Assembly (NCBI GenBank): GCA_902605365.1
Contig: CACLCM010000005.1
Location: forward strand, 3,759-67,758
Length of the DNA: 64,000 nucleotides
From: an uncultured Candidatus Poseidoniales archaeon
GTDB lineage: Archaea; Thermoplasmatota; Poseidoniia; Poseidoniales; Poseidoniaceae
Reading direction: 5' to 3'
Position numbers and translations under genes: made by a program
Notes under the pieces: generated by a model
Told to the model about the DNA's origin: nothing
Seen by the model: the letters and a program-made list of their open reading frames with translations, nothing else
The model's database searches: none
Shown: one piece after another, positions 43,023-47,826 of the stretch
Layout: each line of letters begins with the position of its first letter
Position numbering within the stretch: position 1 is the stretch's first letter

Positions 43023-43096
43023 GTTTGGGCCACAAGCCACTGCTTCAATACGGCTTCGCCGGTTGTTTCAACAACAATTGGCCCCTCGGAGGGGGC

Positions 43097-43672
43097 ATGT
43101 CAGACGCTGATGAGATGATTCTTGCCGGCTCTAGGCCTGCAAAGTCCAATCCTATGGATGACCTCCATTCCAGAACAAGTACCGTACTTTTTGTAGACTC
43201 ACTGATATTTGCATTCCTTGCCTATTCTCTAACACGTGTTGTTGATTTCGCAATTTATCCGGGAATATTCTTCATGGCTGTTTGGTTAGGTTATCGCCAA
43301 AAAGCCGCTTGGGCATACTGGTTCTGTCCAATGGTTATGGGTGGAGTGACGTTAATCTTCTCAATTTTACTTTTTTATAATCTAGCTAATCTGTTCAGTG
43401 CCGGTGGATCATCACTCTTCATGATAGTAATTCTAGCATGGGCAATTTATTCATCGGTTAGGTTTGTTAGAATACATTTCCATCCGGTCTACAAGATGGG
43501 ATACAGTGGATATTCGATTTATGATGAAGGAATAAAACTCGAGCCTAACGAAATGTTAGCAGCTTGCCCGACATGTTTGGCAGTACTGGCAGTAAACCCT
43601 CTAATGCTTTCACCAGAGGACAGATGTCCTCATTGCGATTCGCCACTAGTGCTAAGTCAAGAAGAGGAATAA
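43097..43672 (+). CDS. Four-TM membrane protein with a C-terminal Zn ribbon
   Basis: GGAGGGG RBS; hydrophobic segments; CPTC...CPHC. Confidence 0.75.
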   Translation: MSDADEMILAGSRPAKSNPMDDLHSRTSTVLFVDSLIFAFLAYSLTRVVDFAIYPGIFFMAVWLGYRQKAAWAYWFCPMVMGGVTLIFSILLFYNLANLFSAGGSSLFMIVILAWAIYSSVRFVRIHFHPVYKMGYSGYSIYDEGIKLEPNEMLAACPTCLAVLAVNPLMLSPEDRCPHCDSPLVLSQEEE

Positions 43673-43680
43673 CTTCCTAA

Positions 43681-44706
43681 TCAGCGACTTGCTAGAGTCA
43701 AGTTCTTCCACATGTCTTCTGGAACTTCCATGGCTAGTCTTAGACCACCCATTGCTCCTAAGCGGACTGGGTCATCGACCACGTGAACATTTACTTCTCC
43801 AAGATCGGATAGGCGGCGCTCGATAAGAGCTCCAAGTCCAGCAATACCTGAACCTCCACCTGCAAGAACCATGTTCCTGCGGAATTCGTCATGGAATTCA
43901 GGGTTAGATTCTGCAACTAGTGCTTTCACGTTCTCAACGATTGGGTCAACGATTGATTCACAAGCGTTCTGGATACAATCTGTGATGTCTAGAGTCATGG
44001 CTTTACCTTCAATGGAGAAGTCTACCATAATTGGCTCATCAGGGGTAGATGTTGATACGAAGGAATACTTCTCCTTCCATCGGCGAGCCATGTCCTTGGT
44101 GATTTGAGCACCATTGTATTTCTTCTGTACTTCAACAATAATTTGGTTGTCGACATAGTCACCAGCATATCCTGTGTGCATTTGGTCTGCAGGTCCAGGT
44201 ATTGTACCGTAAACACGGCAAAGGTCAGTAGTTCCTGCACCGATGTCGATTACTAAGGTATGTTCGATCATGTCCAGAGCGTATGCTACAGCGAAAGGCT
44301 CTGAGATAATCATTGCAGCGTTAACTGAACCAGCAGCTGCATCGAAGATAGATGTCTTGTCAACGTGACTTGCTTCAGCAGGTGCACCGATTACAGCAAC
44401 AACTCTGTCGTGGTCTTCAGGGTCTGACAATCCAATCAGGTGGGTGATAAAGTGTGCAATGAATTCACGGTCTTCTGGTGTGTCCTTGATTACACCTAAT
44501 TCAAGCGGTCTGAAAAGGTCAAGAGCAAGTCTGTTTTTTAGCGCTTCTTCGCCAAATAGGACATCTCGCTTCAGGAAATTTCGTGCGATTGGGTCTTTTG
44601 GTGTTCCAATAACTGTTAGTTCCTCTTCTTCGTGACTGTCGCTGGACACCATAACAGAGCGAAAGGTTCCAAGGTCTATTCCAATGTAAAGTACGTCTTC
44701 GGCCAT
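43681..44706 (-). CDS. Actin-like ATPase of the MamK/MreB class (MamK-like)
   Basis: IGIDLGT, GTPKD, SEPFAVAY, DIGAGTTD, GTIPGPADQ..AGDYVD, KEKYSFV, AGGGSGI and LRLAMEVP..W. Confidence 0.9.
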   Translation of the reverse strand: MAEDVLYIGIDLGTFRSVMVSSDSHEEEELTVIGTPKDPIARNFLKRDVLFGEEALKNRLALDLFRPLELGVIKDTPEDREFIAHFITHLIGLSDPEDHDRVVAVIGAPAEASHVDKTSIFDAAAGSVNAAMIISEPFAVAYALDMIEHTLVIDIGAGTTDLCRVYGTIPGPADQMHTGYAGDYVDNQIIVEVQKKYNGAQITKDMARRWKEKYSFVSTSTPDEPIMVDFSIEGKAMTLDITDCIQNACESIVDPIVENVKALVAESNPEFHDEFRRNMVLAGGGSGIAGLGALIERRLSDLGEVNVHVVDDPVRLGAMGGLRLAMEVPEDMWKNLTLASR

Positions 44707-44758
44707 AATACTCGCCTAATTGCTCCATTGGCTGACACCTTATCAATATGCCTCGCTT

Positions 44759-44796
44759 CACAATTGTGCTATGAGTGAAATATAATTCTATATTTC
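44759..44796. promoter_or_regulatory. Two palindromes upstream of the actin-like gene (possible operator or terminator)
   Basis: CACAATTGTG (44759-44768) and GAAATATA-ATTC-TATATTTC (44777-44796). A TATA-like TGATAAG on the minus strand lies ~35 nt before the ATG. Confidence 0.4.
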
Positions 44797-44801
44797 GTGA
44801 C

Positions 44802-45812
44802 CTAGCACCAACTTTCGCATGAATGACAGTACCATGCAGAGTAGTCTGCATATAGTTCGGCCATTTCACCACAACTGGTACATTCTTTGAGAGCATGATC
44901 TCCAAAAATCTGCTGAACTATCTGAACATGTAATTGGTCATCGATACCCAATTGTTGCCTCATAGCCCAAAGCATCTGGTCCTCAGATGGTGATATGATT
45001 CCATCTGCTAAACAGATTTGCACGACTACTCGGTAATCTTCCAACATAGTGATGTCTCTTGGGTCCATTGACACACCGCCTTTCTCAGCAACGATATCAG
45101 TACCTCCTGGGTCATCAACGAAGATAACTAGAGACTCTTCCTTTAATTCGGAAGAGCGTAATTCTAGAAGTATGGTCGCTCCATCCTGATTTGCATAAAC
45201 TAGTTTGGAAAAACGATTGATTACATTGGTGATTGAGCGTGCAGTGTCTTCAGGTGCTCTACCTCTGCGCCAGCCAGTTTCACTAGCTTCATCATAAGCA
45301 TAGAATTCGGTTCCAAGACCAGGGTACTCTAAGCGAATCTCCTCTCCTCCATCAAATCCGTTAGCAACAATTGTGATACTACCAATTGTAGTGTCCACTA
45401 AATTGTCATCATCATCAAATGAAATCATCAATGGTTTTCTTTCTTCAGCAGCGGCATTAAAGTGTCCAGTCATCCCTGCCATCCACTTATCTTCTAGACG
45501 ATGTAGGGAGGCTTCTTGTTCACCAGAAAGTCCCTTTTCAATACCTAATACATTGGATAAATCTCCACTTTGCATTTCTCGCTTGAACTCATCAATTAGT
45601 TCAGCATCTCTTCGATATGTCTCAGGTGGTCCCTTTCTTGTGGCCACGTGGTCAGGGTCTTTCCATTCATATTGGCATTTAACACAAGAAAGGTATCCTG
45701 GCATTGATGAAGGCTGTTTATCTCCACCACATCTTGGGCAATCTCCACCTTCTGTAGTACTCAGATTTTCAGCGGCTTCTCGCCTTCCTTTGCGGAACCC
45801 CCACTCTGCCAT
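44802..45812 (-). CDS. Zn ribbon / TerB-like / Zn ribbon protein
   Basis: CPRC..CVKCQYEW; LADGIISPSEDQMLWAMRQQLGI (TerB-like); CTSC..CHSC. Confidence 0.75.
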   Translation of the reverse strand: MAEWGFRKGRREAAENLSTTEGGDCPRCGGDKQPSSMPGYLSCVKCQYEWKDPDHVATRKGPPETYRRDAELIDEFKREMQSGDLSNVLGIEKGLSGEQEASLHRLEDKWMAGMTGHFNAAAEERKPLMISFDDDDNLVDTTIGSITIVANGFDGGEEIRLEYPGLGTEFYAYDEASETGWRRGRAPEDTARSITNVINRFSKLVYANQDGATILLELRSSELKEESLVIFVDDPGGTDIVAEKGGVSMDPRDITMLEDYRVVVQICLADGIISPSEDQMLWAMRQQLGIDDQLHVQIVQQIFGDHALKECTSCGEMAELYADYSAWYCHSCESWC

Positions 45813-45856: not shown

Positions 45857-46657
45857 TTATGAAAGTAAAGCCTTCAGTCCGTAGCGAATTAATCCGTCTT
45901 GGGCATAGATTCTTCGAACTGCGAATGTCACACTATTGCCTATTACTGGCTTCCCATCTTCATCATCAGCGATCAGGAAAACACCACACGGCCCCTCGTC
46001 CAATCTAACAAATACAGTACTAATACCTCCAAGGATTGGTGCTCTTAAGCTAAATTCTGACGGTGCCCCTCCTGCGGACAACTTAGTCCATGATTCAATC
46101 TTTCCAGATTTCTTCATTGGTGCTGCATCACTTGGCCTTTGGTCTCCAATCATCTCACGTGGTGGCCAAATTCGTATTTCACCGAGTGATTGGCTATTGA
46201 AATTCATTCTTGAAGGGCCGCCACTTCTGTAAGATTGCTCGGAAACAAACGCACCCTGGCTAACTGCAGTCATTTCTTCTTCCCAAGCATCATTCATCTG
46301 TGTAAATAATTCTTCATCCATCTCATTTCCTGAAACTTCCCAAGAAACAATTTCGCTTTTGCTAATGGAAATACTAGCGGAATCCAAATCACAAACAATC
46401 TCCCAAACCGCTTCTTCATCATGTGAGTAACCACATGCTTGCATTACGAATAAATCAATTGGTTCTTCGAATTTGATATTGCTGATTTCTGTTTCCTCAG
46501 ACAATAATTCTAGGCCACTGATTGCAAGTGTTGTGTAATCACTATCGGGGCCAAAAACGTGCTTTCCTCTAATCGAGTGTCGACTCTTGATTACTAATCC
46601 ACTCTGTTGTATGCAAGCTAGATTACCTTGCCAGTCTATACATTGGTTGGAACTCAT
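45857..46657 (-). CDS. Thiolase-associated DUF35-like OB-fold protein with an N-terminal extension and no Zn ligands
   Basis: ATGA overlap with the thiolase stop. GAFVSEQSY, GKIESWTKLSAGGAPSEF and VRRIYAQDGLIRYGLKA. Confidence 0.75.
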   Translation of the reverse strand: MSSNQCIDWQGNLACIQQSGLVIKSRHSIRGKHVFGPDSDYTTLAISGLELLSEETEISNIKFEEPIDLFVMQACGYSHDEEAVWEIVCDLDSASISISKSEIVSWEVSGNEMDEELFTQMNDAWEEEMTAVSQGAFVSEQSYRSGGPSRMNFNSQSLGEIRIWPPREMIGDQRPSDAAPMKKSGKIESWTKLSAGGAPSEFSLRAPILGGISTVFVRLDEGPCGVFLIADDEDGKPVIGNSVTFAVRRIYAQDGLIRYGLKALLS

Positions 46658-47826
46658 TTCAAATCCCTCCCGAATACGTGGACAGAGCATGTCGCACCCG
46701 ATCCGCCAACATTGTGAGTTAGTGCCGTTGTTGCATCTCTTACTTGACGACTAGATTCTACTTCTCCACGTAATTGCTTGAAAACTTCGACAATTTGCCC
46801 AGTTCCAGTAGCTCCTAAGGGATGACCCTTGGACTTTAGTCCACCACTTGGATTGATAGCGACTTGACCTTCATTCCTGCGACCTCGCCCTTCCCTTGCA
46901 AACAGTCCACCTTCACCTCGATTAGCAAATCCAAGGTCCTCGGTAGCCATCAACTCTGCAATTGTAAAGCAATCATGTACTTCTGCAAGGTCTATGTCTT
47001 TGGCTGAAATTCCAGCCTGGTCATATGCACTCATCGCAGCACGCTGTGTGGCGATTAATTGTGTAATTGAAGGCCTGTCGTGAAGTGCCAAATGGTCACT
47101 ACCCGCTCCTGAGCCAAGAACCCAAACTGGGTCGTCAGTCAATTTCTTTGCCACATGGTCTGCGGCTAATATTACGGTTGAAGCACCATCGGAAGTTGGA
47201 CAGCAGTCATAGAGAGTTAGTGGGTCTGCGACCATGAATCCACTTTGTGCCTTTTCGAATGATACATCCTTACGTATATGGGCAAATTCATTATCCAATC
47301 CGTGCATGTGGTTTTTCACTGAAATATTAACCAAATCATCATGCACACTTCCATATTCATGAAAATGCCTTCTTGCCATTAATGCATAGGTTCCTGGAAA
47401 TGTAAGTCCGGCTAGTCTTTCCCATTCAGTATCTCCACTTACACCTAGCCAGAAACGCTTTCTTTCAGGTGTTAAGTCATTCATCTTCTCAATACCGCCG
47501 GCTACTACAATGTCTGCCTGGCCGCTCTTAATCGCCATCCATGCGTCTCTGAATGCAAATCCAGATGATGCACAAGCGTTTTCAACTCTGCGAACAGGAA
47601 TATTGTCCATACCGGTATGTTCGGTTAGTAATGCTGCAGTATTACCTATCTGGCCACCACCAAAAGCAATCGAGCCAATGAATGCCTCATCCACCATTGA
47701 TGGGTCAAAGTCTCCATCTATTGAAGCGAACGCATTTTCGGTAGATTCGGCCCACATACCCTTCAAACCAAGAGCATGGTTGCCGAATTTTGTCTGACCA
47801 GCACCAATGACTGCTACATCGACCAT
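46654..47826 (-). CDS. Acetyl-CoA acetyltransferase (archaeal / SCP2-type thiolase)
   Basis: VENACASS, DCCPTSDGA, AEVHDCF, NPSGGLKSKGHPLGATG and HNVGG. Confidence 0.92.
   Translation of the reverse strand: MVDVAVIGAGQTKFGNHALGLKGMWAESTENAFASIDGDFDPSMVDEAFIGSIAFGGGQIGNTAALLTEHTGMDNIPVRRVENACASSGFAFRDAWMAIKSGQADIVVAGGIEKMNDLTPERKRFWLGVSGDTEWERLAGLTFPGTYALMARRHFHEYGSVHDDLVNISVKNHMHGLDNEFAHIRKDVSFEKAQSGFMVADPLTLYDCCPTSDGASTVILAADHVAKKLTDDPVWVLGSGAGSDHLALHDRPSITQLIATQRAAMSAYDQAGISAKDIDLAEVHDCFTIAELMATEDLGFANRGEGGLFAREGRGRRNEGQVAINPSGGLKSKGHPLGATGTGQIVEVFKQLRGEVESSRQVRDATTALTHNVGGSGATCSVHVFGRDLK

What the first reader, a model, noticed from the sequence alone, without database searches (positions are those of the whole stretch)
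43681..44706. MamK-like actin in a marine archaeon with no magnetosome genes
Beyond the generic actin fold, the protein shares many features with magnetosome MamK as I recall it. Pairs (this protein vs MamK): GTPKD vs GYPKD; SEPFAVAYALD vs SEPFMVGYGLD; DIGAGTTDLC..GTIPGPADQ vs DIGAGTTDIC..GTVPGPEDQ; KEKYSFV vs KEQFSFV; LRLAMEVP..W vs LRLAEELP..W. These match MamK better than MreB. MamK forms filaments that position organelles. No other mam gene and no mreC/mreD is in the window. It may therefore be an archaeal filament system that positions something else (inference).
Basis: partly seen in the sequence, partly recalled or inferred. Interest (0 to 1): 0.8.

Follow-up and report, generated by a model that had tools for sequence, protein, structure and literature searches.

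The report
MamK-family actin module in marine archaea
This gene encodes an actin-like filament protein of the broad MamK family, kept with its own zinc-ribbon partner gene (and a second actin copy with a coiled-coil partner) in most Marine Group II ocean archaea; it has nothing to do with magnetosomes or rod shape, and what it moves or organises is still unknown.

Summary
ORF 43681-44706(-) encodes a 341-aa actin-fold ATPase. Its best matches are MamK: PDB 5LJW at E 6e-74, NCBIfam MamK at 361 bits (cut-off 400), and an AF2 model with TM 0.85-0.89 to the MamK filament subunit. MreB models score far below their cut-offs.

It is not a magnetosome MamK orthologue. In an 86-row ML tree it lies outside the magnetosome MamK clade (99/97). 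It groups with a second Poseidoniales paralogue, B (100/99). Their sister clade is the Calditrichota/KSB1 MamK-like proteins (99/95).

MamP and MreC are absent from the genomes tested, and published microscopy describes MGII cells as coccoid.

In 121 Poseidoniales genomes:
- 76 carry A and B.
- The same 76 carry the orphan double-zinc-ribbon gene 44802-45812(-), which lay directly upstream of A in all 30 loci examined.
- 74 carry a coiled-coil gene downstream of B.
- The 45 genomes that lack A and B lack the partner genes as well; those listed are 1.3-1.6 Mb Thalassarchaeaceae.
- Archaellin presence does not track this pattern.

Best reading: an accessory two-filament, adaptor-linked positioning or scaffolding system with an unknown cargo. 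The same family has been flagged repeatedly by this scan in other genomes. I found no publication describing it.

The parts
43681..44706 (-). Paralogue A: MamK-family actin-like ATPase, 341 aa
   Evidence: ORF. Family and PDB scores. AF2 model pLDDT 82, pTM 0.79; best fold match is the MamK filament subunit 5LJV, TM 0.85/0.89. The equivalents of MamK E143 and D161 are invariant in 148/148 A sequences. A is 73-80% identical between the two Poseidoniales families, against 50-59% for its partner gene and 52-62% for neighbouring coaBC.
44802..45812 (-). Candidate partner: orphan 336-aa cytoplasmic protein. It has a conserved basic N-terminal peptide (F/I-R-K-G-R-R), an N-terminal Zn ribbon, helices, an alpha/beta domain, a TerB-like helical segment and a C-terminal Zn ribbon.
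   Evidence: Directly upstream of A and co-oriented in 30/30 loci. Present in exactly the same 76 of 121 Poseidoniales genomes as the actin and absent from the same 45. Its listed (best 120 of 304) homologues that carry an organism name are all Poseidoniales or unclassified Euryarchaeota, with no Pfam family beyond a weak Zn-ribbon hit. Not found in six other Thermoplasmatota that carry MamK-family genes. AF2 pLDDT 74; no PDB fold match, TM at most 0.25.
44707..44801 (-). Intergenic region holding A's own promoter-like elements: a TATA-like ATTGATAAGG at 44738-44747, a GGCGAG Shine-Dalgarno-like site at 44711-44716, and an AT-rich palindrome GAAATATAGAATTATATTTC at 44777-44796 just after the partner's stop codon.
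   Evidence: Sequence. A TTCATAAA/TTGATAA-type element about 30-40 nt upstream of the ATG, plus GGTGAG/GGCGAG, recurs in the 31 aligned intergenic regions. Many family-f1 loci also have TTCTATAGA after the partner's stop. Function is inferred, not shown.
43025..43672 (+). Convergent neighbour: a 215-aa four-TM membrane protein with a C-terminal Zn ribbon. Its link to the actin is uncertain.
   Evidence: ORF. Detected next to A in 19 of 30 loci at only 26-39% identity and missing in the others. It lies tail to tail with A, so there is no operon argument.

Best explanation
Gene A encodes an ATP-dependent, filament-forming actin of the broad MamK-like family. It is not the magnetosome MamK proper.

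In Poseidoniales it is one half of an accessory cytoskeleton made of two anciently duplicated paralogues. A is paired with an order-specific double-zinc-ribbon protein encoded directly upstream. B, on other contigs of this genome, is paired with a roughly 420-aa coiled-coil protein encoded directly downstream.

Proposed mechanism, by analogy with MamK+MamJ/McaAB and ParM+ParR:
- A and B polymerise on ATP into MamK-type filaments (inferred).
- The partner proteins act as adaptors or regulators that tie the filaments to a cellular target. The target is then held in place or partitioned in the roughly 0.7-um coccoid cell (inferred).
- The target is not a magnetosome, not a peptidoglycan elongasome and not the archaellum. 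What it is remains unknown.

The four genes are present or absent as a set. The genomes listed as lacking them are 1.3-1.6 Mb Thalassarchaeaceae, so the system is dispensable and not part of core division or segregation.

Shown here: family placement, fold, intact ATPase motifs, the two paralogues, synteny, co-occurrence and the loss pattern. Inferred: polymerisation, physical partnership and a positioning role.
For: Family and fold: PDB MamK E 6e-74; NCBIfam MamK 361 bits against BeeR 213 and MreB 94. AF2 model TM 0.85/0.89 to the MamK filament subunit, then BeeR 0.79, then MreB about 0.72-0.77. The phosphate-1, phosphate-2 and adenosine motifs are intact, and the E143/D161 equivalents are invariant in 148 A and 12 B sequences. 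Both characterised relatives, MamK and BeeR, polymerise with ATP (PMC11929497).

Phylogeny (careful IQ-TREE, 86 rows): A+B 100/99, each paralogue 100/100, sister to Calditrichota/KSB1 99/95, magnetosome MamK a separate clade 99/97. The AU test rejects Poseidoniales plus magnetosome MamK as one clade, p 0.018.

Two paralogues: nearly every positive genome has exactly two copies, at about 360 and 335 bits. In this genome B is split over the ends of contigs C23 and C3.

Partners: the Zn-ribbon gene is adjacent in 30/30 loci and has an identical phyletic pattern, 76/76 present and 45/45 absent. The coiled-coil gene is adjacent to B in 11/11 loci and strongly present in 74 of the 76.

High constraint: A is 73-80% identical across families, against 50-62% for its neighbours.

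Recurring theme: the nearest bacterial relatives fuse a coiled-coil domain to the actin. In three other Thermoplasmatota the actin gene is followed by a coiled-coil or linker protein.

Exclusions: MamP absent in 16 genomes (G000 and 15 others). MreC absent in 7. MGII cells are coccoid (PMC6864105). Archaellin is discordant in 22 of 121 genomes.
Against: Gene order is generally well conserved within this order (thiolase/DUF35 and coaBC also stay nearby), so adjacency alone is weak. A has its own promoter-like element and so is not obviously co-transcribed with the partner. The perfect co-occurrence could partly reflect shared loss during genome streamlining and not a functional link. The partner has no recognisable fold, no interaction could be modelled, and no cargo candidate emerged. 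Subdomain IB of the model is low-confidence (residues 34-74). At the position where A278D makes Magnetospirillum MamK non-polymerising (title of PDB 5LJW), A natively has Asp. That position is variable even among magnetosome MamKs, so this is only a caution.
Confidence: 0.55

Rival explanations
1. Cell-size, shape or envelope scaffold. The filaments line or brace the membrane or S-layer, or guide envelope growth, in the larger-celled Poseidoniales. This would resemble what MreB or volactin do for shape, but without peptidoglycan.
For: The genomes listed as lacking the system are small (1.3-1.6 Mb), and such lineages may also have the smallest cells. B always lies downstream of a membrane-anchored S8 subtilase. 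A convergent four-TM Zn-ribbon protein often flanks A. Public annotation calls the protein MreB.
Against: MGIIa and MGIIb cells both look like roughly 0.7-um cocci by CARD-FISH (PMC6864105). There is no N-terminal amphipathic helix. MreB models score far below their cut-offs. No MreC was found. The membrane neighbour is not constantly present.
Confidence: 0.2
2. A DNA (chromosome copy) partition system of the ParM/salactin type. The Zn-ribbon protein would be the DNA-binding adaptor and the intergenic palindromes the centromere-like site.
For: Salactin, reported as the closest subfamily to MamK, affects DNA partitioning in Halobacterium (PMC10746226). An adaptor gene lies next to an actin gene with palindromes between them. 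Zn ribbons often bind nucleic acids (general knowledge).
Against: The partner is strongly acidic (pI 4.5, net charge -29), and its only net-positive segment of the seven examined is the first 20 residues (net +1). The palindromes are not conserved across the order. The ParM and salactin models score 15 and 64 bits against cut-offs of 417 and 400. The context is chromosomal housekeeping, not a plasmid. The whole system is dispensable in 45 of 121 genomes.
Confidence: 0.15
3. A non-polymerising actin-fold ATPase with an enzymatic or chaperone-like job.
For: Polymerisation is untested. Asp occupies the position of the non-polymerising MamK A278D mutation. Subdomain IB is poorly modelled.
Against: All close characterised relatives polymerise. 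The best structural match is the filament-state MamK subunit. The 278 position varies among true MamKs. Conservation is very high, as is usual for filament formers.
Confidence: 0.05
4. A true MamK orthologue serving magnetosomes or a related mineral organelle in archaea.
For: It has the highest similarity to MamK among solved structures.
Against: It lies outside the magnetosome clade (AU p 0.018). It scores below the family cut-off. No MamP was found in 16 genomes (G000 and 15 others). The neighbours are housekeeping genes.
Confidence: 0.02

Closest known systems
MamK of Magnetospirillum (magnetosome actin; PDB 5LJV, 5LJW, 5JYG; NCBIfam NF040964), with its adaptors MamJ and McaA/McaB
   Same: Same protein family and fold (38% identity, TM 0.85-0.89). 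Same ATPase motifs. Same length, with no N-terminal extension. Occurs as two paralogues, like MamK and MamK-like in AMB-1. Accompanied by lineage-specific, acidic or coiled-coil partner genes.
   Different: Archaeal host. Lies outside the magnetosome clade. Scores 361 bits, under the 400-bit cut-off. No mam genes. The partners are unrelated orphans (a double-Zn-ribbon protein and a coiled-coil protein). The cargo is unknown, and filament architecture is untested.
Calditrichota / candidate division KSB1 MamK-like tandem pairs (uncharacterised; loci L055, L056)
   Same: They are the sister clade in the tree (99/95), at 44-49% identity. They also have two paralogues and also combine the actin with a coiled-coil element.
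   Different: There the coiled coil plus a long disordered linker is fused to the N-terminus of one paralogue. The pair sits next to DUF4388, Roadblock/LC7 and small Ras/Arf-like GTPase genes. Roadblock was detected in only 8 of 121 Poseidoniales genomes, and the Zn-ribbon partner was not found at the two bacterial loci examined (L055, L056).
BeeR (Verrucomicrobiota three-stranded tubular actin; PDB 8R2N)
   Same: A MamK-related actin in non-magnetotactic organisms, shown to polymerise with ATP. It is the second-best structural and HMM match.
   Different: A separate clade (100/92). It scores 213 bits against a cut-off of 530. The window protein lacks the 30-50-aa disordered N-terminal extension that marks BeeR.
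Salactin (Halobacterium) and MreB
   Same: Actin-fold cytoskeletal ATPases. Salactin is archaeal and has been reported as closest to MamK.
   Different: Salactin scores 64 bits (cut-off 400). The MreB models score 94 and 82 bits (cut-offs 293 and 366). There is no mreC, and the cells are coccoid. The Pfam MreB_Mbl hit (92 bits) only reflects that model's breadth.

Membership tests
MamK (NCBIfam NF040964, 'MamK family actin-like protein') | Whole-protein score at or above the curated cut-off of 400 bits | tested here: not met
   A scores 361 bits and B 330 bits. For comparison: Caldithrix 430, Nitrospira 425, Gemmatimonadota 412, other Thermoplasmatota 398-435, and a magnetosome-clade representative 508.
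MamK sensu stricto (magnetosome actin) | Branches within the clade of magnetosome-associated MamK proteins | tested here: not met
   The magnetosome clade (AMB-1 MamK and MamK-like, Magnetococcales, an MTB fosmid protein and others) has 99/97 support and excludes the Poseidoniales proteins. AU p is 0.018 for forcing them together. The group was named after the tree had been seen.
MamK sensu stricto (magnetosome actin) | Encoded with other magnetosome genes | tested here: not met
   MamP (NF040965) is absent from G000 and from 15 archaeal genomes that carry the actin. The neighbours are coaBC, thiolase/DUF35, Tpt1, a ribosomal protein, FtsY and GGGP synthase. Only one mam family was searched.
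MamK-like superfamily (broad) | MamK-type actin fold and intact catalytic Glu/Asp (MamK E143, D161) | tested here: met
   Foldseek best hit is 5LJV_A, E 6e-33, TM 0.85/0.89, rmsd 2.9 A. E and D are invariant in all 148 A and 12 B sequences.
MamK-like superfamily (broad) | ATP-dependent assembly into parallel, unstaggered double filaments | not testable with these tools
   This needs a pelleting assay and EM.
MreB | Score above the MreB family cut-offs | tested here: not met
   PRK13927 93.6 bits against 293; TIGR00904 81.8 against 365.75. MreB is the long outgroup branch of the tree.
MreB | Works with MreC/MreD in a rod-shaped, wall-building cell | tested here: not met
   PF04085 (MreC) is absent from 7 genomes but hits 7 control bacteria. 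MGII cells are coccoid according to PMC6864105 (literature, not tested here).
BeeR | Score at or above 530 bits and a disordered 30-50-aa N-terminal extension | tested here: not met
   212.6 bits. The protein's first beta-strand begins at residue 5.
Salactin | Score at or above 400 bits on NF053533 | tested here: not met
   64.4 bits.
ParM / type II partition system | ParM-family actin plus an adjacent DNA-binding adaptor and centromere repeats, usually on a plasmid | tested here: not met
   ParM model 15 bits against 417. The context is chromosomal and conserved. The adjacent protein is acidic. The palindromes are not conserved.

The most novel reading that the evidence does not exclude
Poseidoniales use a bipartite actin cytoskeleton (A with its Zn-ribbon adaptor, B with its coiled-coil adaptor) to position or partition a so far unseen intracellular structure in their tiny coccoid cells. 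The system shares ancestry with a Calditrichota/KSB1 system. This would be the first organelle- or cargo-positioning actin machine known in Thermoplasmatota, in one of the most abundant archaeal groups of the surface ocean.
Probability: 0.25. Interest if true: 0.8.

Novelty: new variant of a known kind. Interest (0 to 1): 0.55.

Why it matters
Marine Group II archaea are uncultured and among the most abundant archaea in surface seawater, and nothing is known of their cell biology. They carry a very strongly conserved pair of actin paralogues with private partner proteins, which are kept or lost as a set. This gives a concrete and cloneable entry point: four genes to express, image and reconstitute.

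The result also corrects a widespread database label ('rod shape-determining protein MreB'). It shows that mamK-like sequences in marine metagenomes are not evidence of magnetotactic organisms, which matters because mamK has been used as a marker gene for them (10.1101/682252, seen).

The sister relationship with Calditrichota/KSB1 adds a case of gene exchange across domains that involves cytoskeletal proteins.

Tried and rejected
1. Archaellum link. Archaellin (PF01917) is also present in 76 of 121 genomes, but in a different set: 11 genomes have the actin without archaellin and 11 the reverse. Rejected.

2. MglA/MglB-type polarity module, as next to the Caldithrix/KSB1 relatives. Roadblock/LC7 was detected, weakly, in only 8 of 121 Poseidoniales genomes. 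Rejected as a conserved companion.

3. It was found upstream of A in 6 of 31 loci (the two that can be mapped to a genus are g3) and upstream of B in 5 of 11, not in the same genomes. It was never found upstream of the partner or the coiled-coil gene. Not supported as a common regulon signal. A TGAACCTTC / GAAGGTTCA element shared by the B and coiled-coil upstream regions appears in only some genomes.

4. Fold identification of the partner. AF2 gave pLDDT 74, and Foldseek against the PDB gave nothing above TM 0.25.

5. Partner outside the order. Only 40-60-residue TerB-like fragments were found, on unrelated contigs of other Thermoplasmatota.

6. The A278D caution. Asp is native in A, but the position varies within true MamKs.

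8. The MamK structure paper PMC5127371 is not held, and no paper mentioning A278D was found.

9. Literature search for MamK or MreB in MGII/Poseidoniales. No description was found. Yutin et al. 2009 only note 'some archaeal' members in the MamK/ParM branches.

Full report
**Observation.** The ORF is real: 43681-44706 on the minus strand, 341 aa, ATG start. Base composition is flat across the window at 40-49% GC, with no sign of an island.
- Pfam places the protein in the broad MreB_Mbl family (92 bits), with weaker Salactin, Actin and Volactin hits.
- NCBIfam separates the candidates clearly: MamK 361 bits (cut-off 400), BeeR 213, MreB 94 and 82, salactin 64, ParM 15.
- Against PDB sequences the three MamK entries lead at E 6e-74 to 8e-73. 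BeeR follows at 1e-42 and MreB at about 1e-13.
- An AlphaFold2 model (pLDDT 82, pTM 0.79; subdomain IB is weak) matches the MamK filament subunit 5LJV best (TM 0.85/0.89, rmsd 2.9 A). BeeR is next at 0.79, and MreB and actins fall at about 0.7-0.77.

**Organism and conservation.** Near-identical and 75-99% identical proteins come from Poseidoniales, Poseidoniaceae and Thalassarchaeaceae assemblies. They are labelled 'hypothetical' or 'rod shape-determining protein MreB'. The window is contig C5 of a 1.45-Mb, 60%-complete assembly.

**A second paralogue.** The genome holds a second MamK-like gene, B, broken over the ends of contigs C23 (N-terminus, with one TAG) and C3 (C-terminus).
- Across 121 Poseidoniales genomes, 76 have MamK-family hits, and almost all of these have exactly two, at about 360 bits (A) and 335 bits (B).
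- A and B are about 45% identical to each other.
- The 45 negative genomes listed are Thalassarchaeaceae genera of 1.3-1.6 Mb.

**Partners.** The 336-aa gene at 44802-45812(-) lies directly upstream of A in 30 of 30 loci from both families.
- It occurs in exactly the same 76 genomes and is absent from the same 45.
- Its listed homologues (the best 120 of 304) that carry an organism name are all Poseidoniales or unclassified Euryarchaeota. JGI sometimes labels them 'ribosomal protein L37AE', which is likely a mislabel caused by the Zn ribbon. They have no Pfam family.
- It is absent from six other Thermoplasmatota that carry MamK-family genes.
- Its alignment shows an invariant basic N-terminal peptide, two CxxC...CxxC ribbons, a well-modelled alpha/beta domain and a TerB-like 'DGIISPSEDQLLW' segment.
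- The AF2 model (pLDDT 74) has no PDB fold match.
- It is strongly acidic (pI 4.5), in a proteome whose median pI is about 5.0.

B is always flanked by a membrane-anchored S8 subtilase upstream and a roughly 420-aa coiled-coil protein downstream. All three are on the same strand, in 11 of 11 loci. The coiled-coil gene is strongly present in 74 of the 76 actin-positive genomes. The actin-negative genomes give only weak partial hits.

A has its own TATA-like and Shine-Dalgarno-like elements in the 95-nt spacer, so co-transcription with the partner is not implied. A is much more conserved between the two families (73-80% identity) than its partner (50-59%) or coaBC (52-62%).

**Phylogeny.** An exhaustive HMMER scan of 1.84 billion representatives gave 1227 relatives. 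The nearest sequences outside the order are 700-1230-aa proteins with three parts: an N-terminal coiled-coil domain of about 100 aa, a long disordered linker, and a C-terminal MamK-like domain that is 44-49% identical to A.
- A scan with that N-terminal domain identified these proteins in a Caldithrix sp. genome and a candidate division KSB1 genome.
- In both, the fusion gene is followed by a short MamK-like paralogue, then DUF4388/Roadblock, Roadblock and small Ras/Arf-like GTPase genes.
- Source names for other representatives show how widely the family occurs: Nitrospira, Gemmatimonadota, Acidobacteriota, Verrucomicrobiota, ANME-2/Methanosarcinales and Methanolobus. They also identify the magnetosome proteins proper (MamK-like of AMB-1, Magnetococcales, and a metagenomic FtsZ-MamK fusion annotated as MamK).
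- Six other Thermoplasmatota genomes (2.8-5.5 Mb) carry genes scoring 398-435 bits. Four of these are above the NCBIfam cut-off.

The careful ML tree (86 rows, LG+C20+F+G4 PMSF, E. coli MreB as outgroup) gives these supports (the quick 109-row tree agrees):
- BeeR clade 100/92.
- Magnetosome MamK clade 99/97.
- Poseidoniales A 100/100 and B 100/100, and A+B together 100/99.
- (A+B) sister to Calditrichota/KSB1, 99/95.
- This pair groups (92/93) with an ANME-2/Methanolobus clade and another Thermoplasmatota clade.

Forcing Poseidoniales together with the magnetosome clade costs 48.7 log-likelihood units (AU p 0.018). The direction of the archaeon-bacterium transfer is unresolved. Three of the four lineages in the enclosing group are archaeal.

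**What it is not.**
- MamP is absent from this genome and from 15 actin-bearing archaeal genomes.
- MreC is absent from seven genomes.
- MGIIa and MGIIb cells are about 0.7-um cocci (PMC6864105).
- Archaellin presence is discordant with the actin in 22 of 121 genomes, whereas the Zn-ribbon partner is never discordant.
- Roadblock/LC7 was detected in only 8 of 121 genomes.

**How it most likely works.** The ATPase motifs are intact, and the equivalents of MamK E143 and D161 are invariant. Both characterised relatives polymerise with ATP. I therefore infer ATP-driven filament formation by A and B.

Each paralogue has a private, co-inherited neighbour. Coiled-coil elements recur with this family, fused in Calditrichota/KSB1 and encoded downstream in other Thermoplasmatota. 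Coiled-coil and acidic adaptors are also described for magnetosome MamK (titles and abstracts seen). Together these make a filament-plus-adaptor arrangement the most economical reading.

All four genes are missing together from 45 genomes. The system is therefore accessory and not part of core division or segregation. The cargo is unknown. Rivals that the data do not exclude are an envelope or size scaffold, a salactin- or ParM-like DNA partition role, and a non-polymerising ATPase. They are ranked in the Rival explanations section.

**Comparison with what is known, and novelty.** NCBI's 'MamK family' model already captures non-magnetotactic bacteria and some archaea. Yutin et al. 2009 noted archaeal members in the MamK/ParM branches. 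BeeR established that MamK relatives work outside magnetotactic bacteria.

In the held literature I found no description of the Poseidoniales proteins, their duplication or their partners. Within this scan, however, the same family has been reported from at least 19 other genomes with similar conclusions.

This report adds:
- the all-or-none four-gene distribution and its loss from small-genome lineages, which contradicts earlier notes saying 'all' MGII carry it;
- the decoupling from the archaellum;
- the Calditrichota/KSB1 sister group with its coiled-coil fusion and GTPase/Roadblock context;
- a supported tree with an AU test.

**Verdict.** This is a new variant of a known kind of system, of moderate to good interest.

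Noticed in passing
G000 contigs C23:127-345(-) and C3:3-515(+) (loci L054, L053): The second MamK-like paralogue (B) of this genome is split across two contig ends, and its N-terminal piece carries an in-frame TAG. A 184-aa DUF4760 gene is inserted between B and the coiled-coil gene here, but not in the other genomes examined.
   Followed up: partly
L055 8001-16281 (Caldithrix sp.) and L056 7995-14785 (cand. div. KSB1): A conserved bacterial cluster: a coiled-coil/linker/MamK-like fusion, a short MamK-like paralogue, DUF4388+Roadblock, Roadblock x2-3, and a small Ras/Arf-like GTPase. This is an uncharacterised actin plus MglA/MglB-type module.
   Followed up: partly
L061 8200-10056, L062 5591-6880, L063 161-1831 (other Thermoplasmatota): The MamK-family gene is followed by a protein with a globular N-domain, a long coiled-coil or Pro/Gln-rich linker, and a conserved C-terminal peptide (F-x-K-I-L-x-E/D-N-x-S/I-L). 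This looks like a tethered filament-binding motif.
   Followed up: no
Protein P0163 (CAX83788.1, 768 aa): An N-terminal FtsZ domain is fused to a MamK domain in a protein annotated 'Magnetosome protein MamK' from an uncultured bacterium. It branches inside the magnetosome MamK clade.
   Followed up: no
L064 3515-5701 (G252): Downstream of a MamK-family gene lies a 728-aa protein that combines a DUF4388-like N-terminus, an acidic linker and a DnaA-like AAA+ domain (GGVGLGKTHL).
   Followed up: no
Whole genome G000: CTATAG occurs 77 times against about 860 expected from base composition. Yet TTCTATAGA is conserved just after the partner gene's stop codon in many Poseidoniaceae loci.
   Followed up: partly
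G003:C1:1175447-1176441: In a single-contig (complete) Poseidoniaceae genome the A copy is read in two adjacent pieces. This is a frameshift or an assembly indel.
   Followed up: no
window 45857-47826 (-): A DUF35-like OB-fold protein and a thiolase overlap by 37 nt and stay upstream of the actin module across the order. This is probably the archaeal acetoacetyl-CoA thiolase/DUF35 pair of the mevalonate pathway.
   Followed up: no
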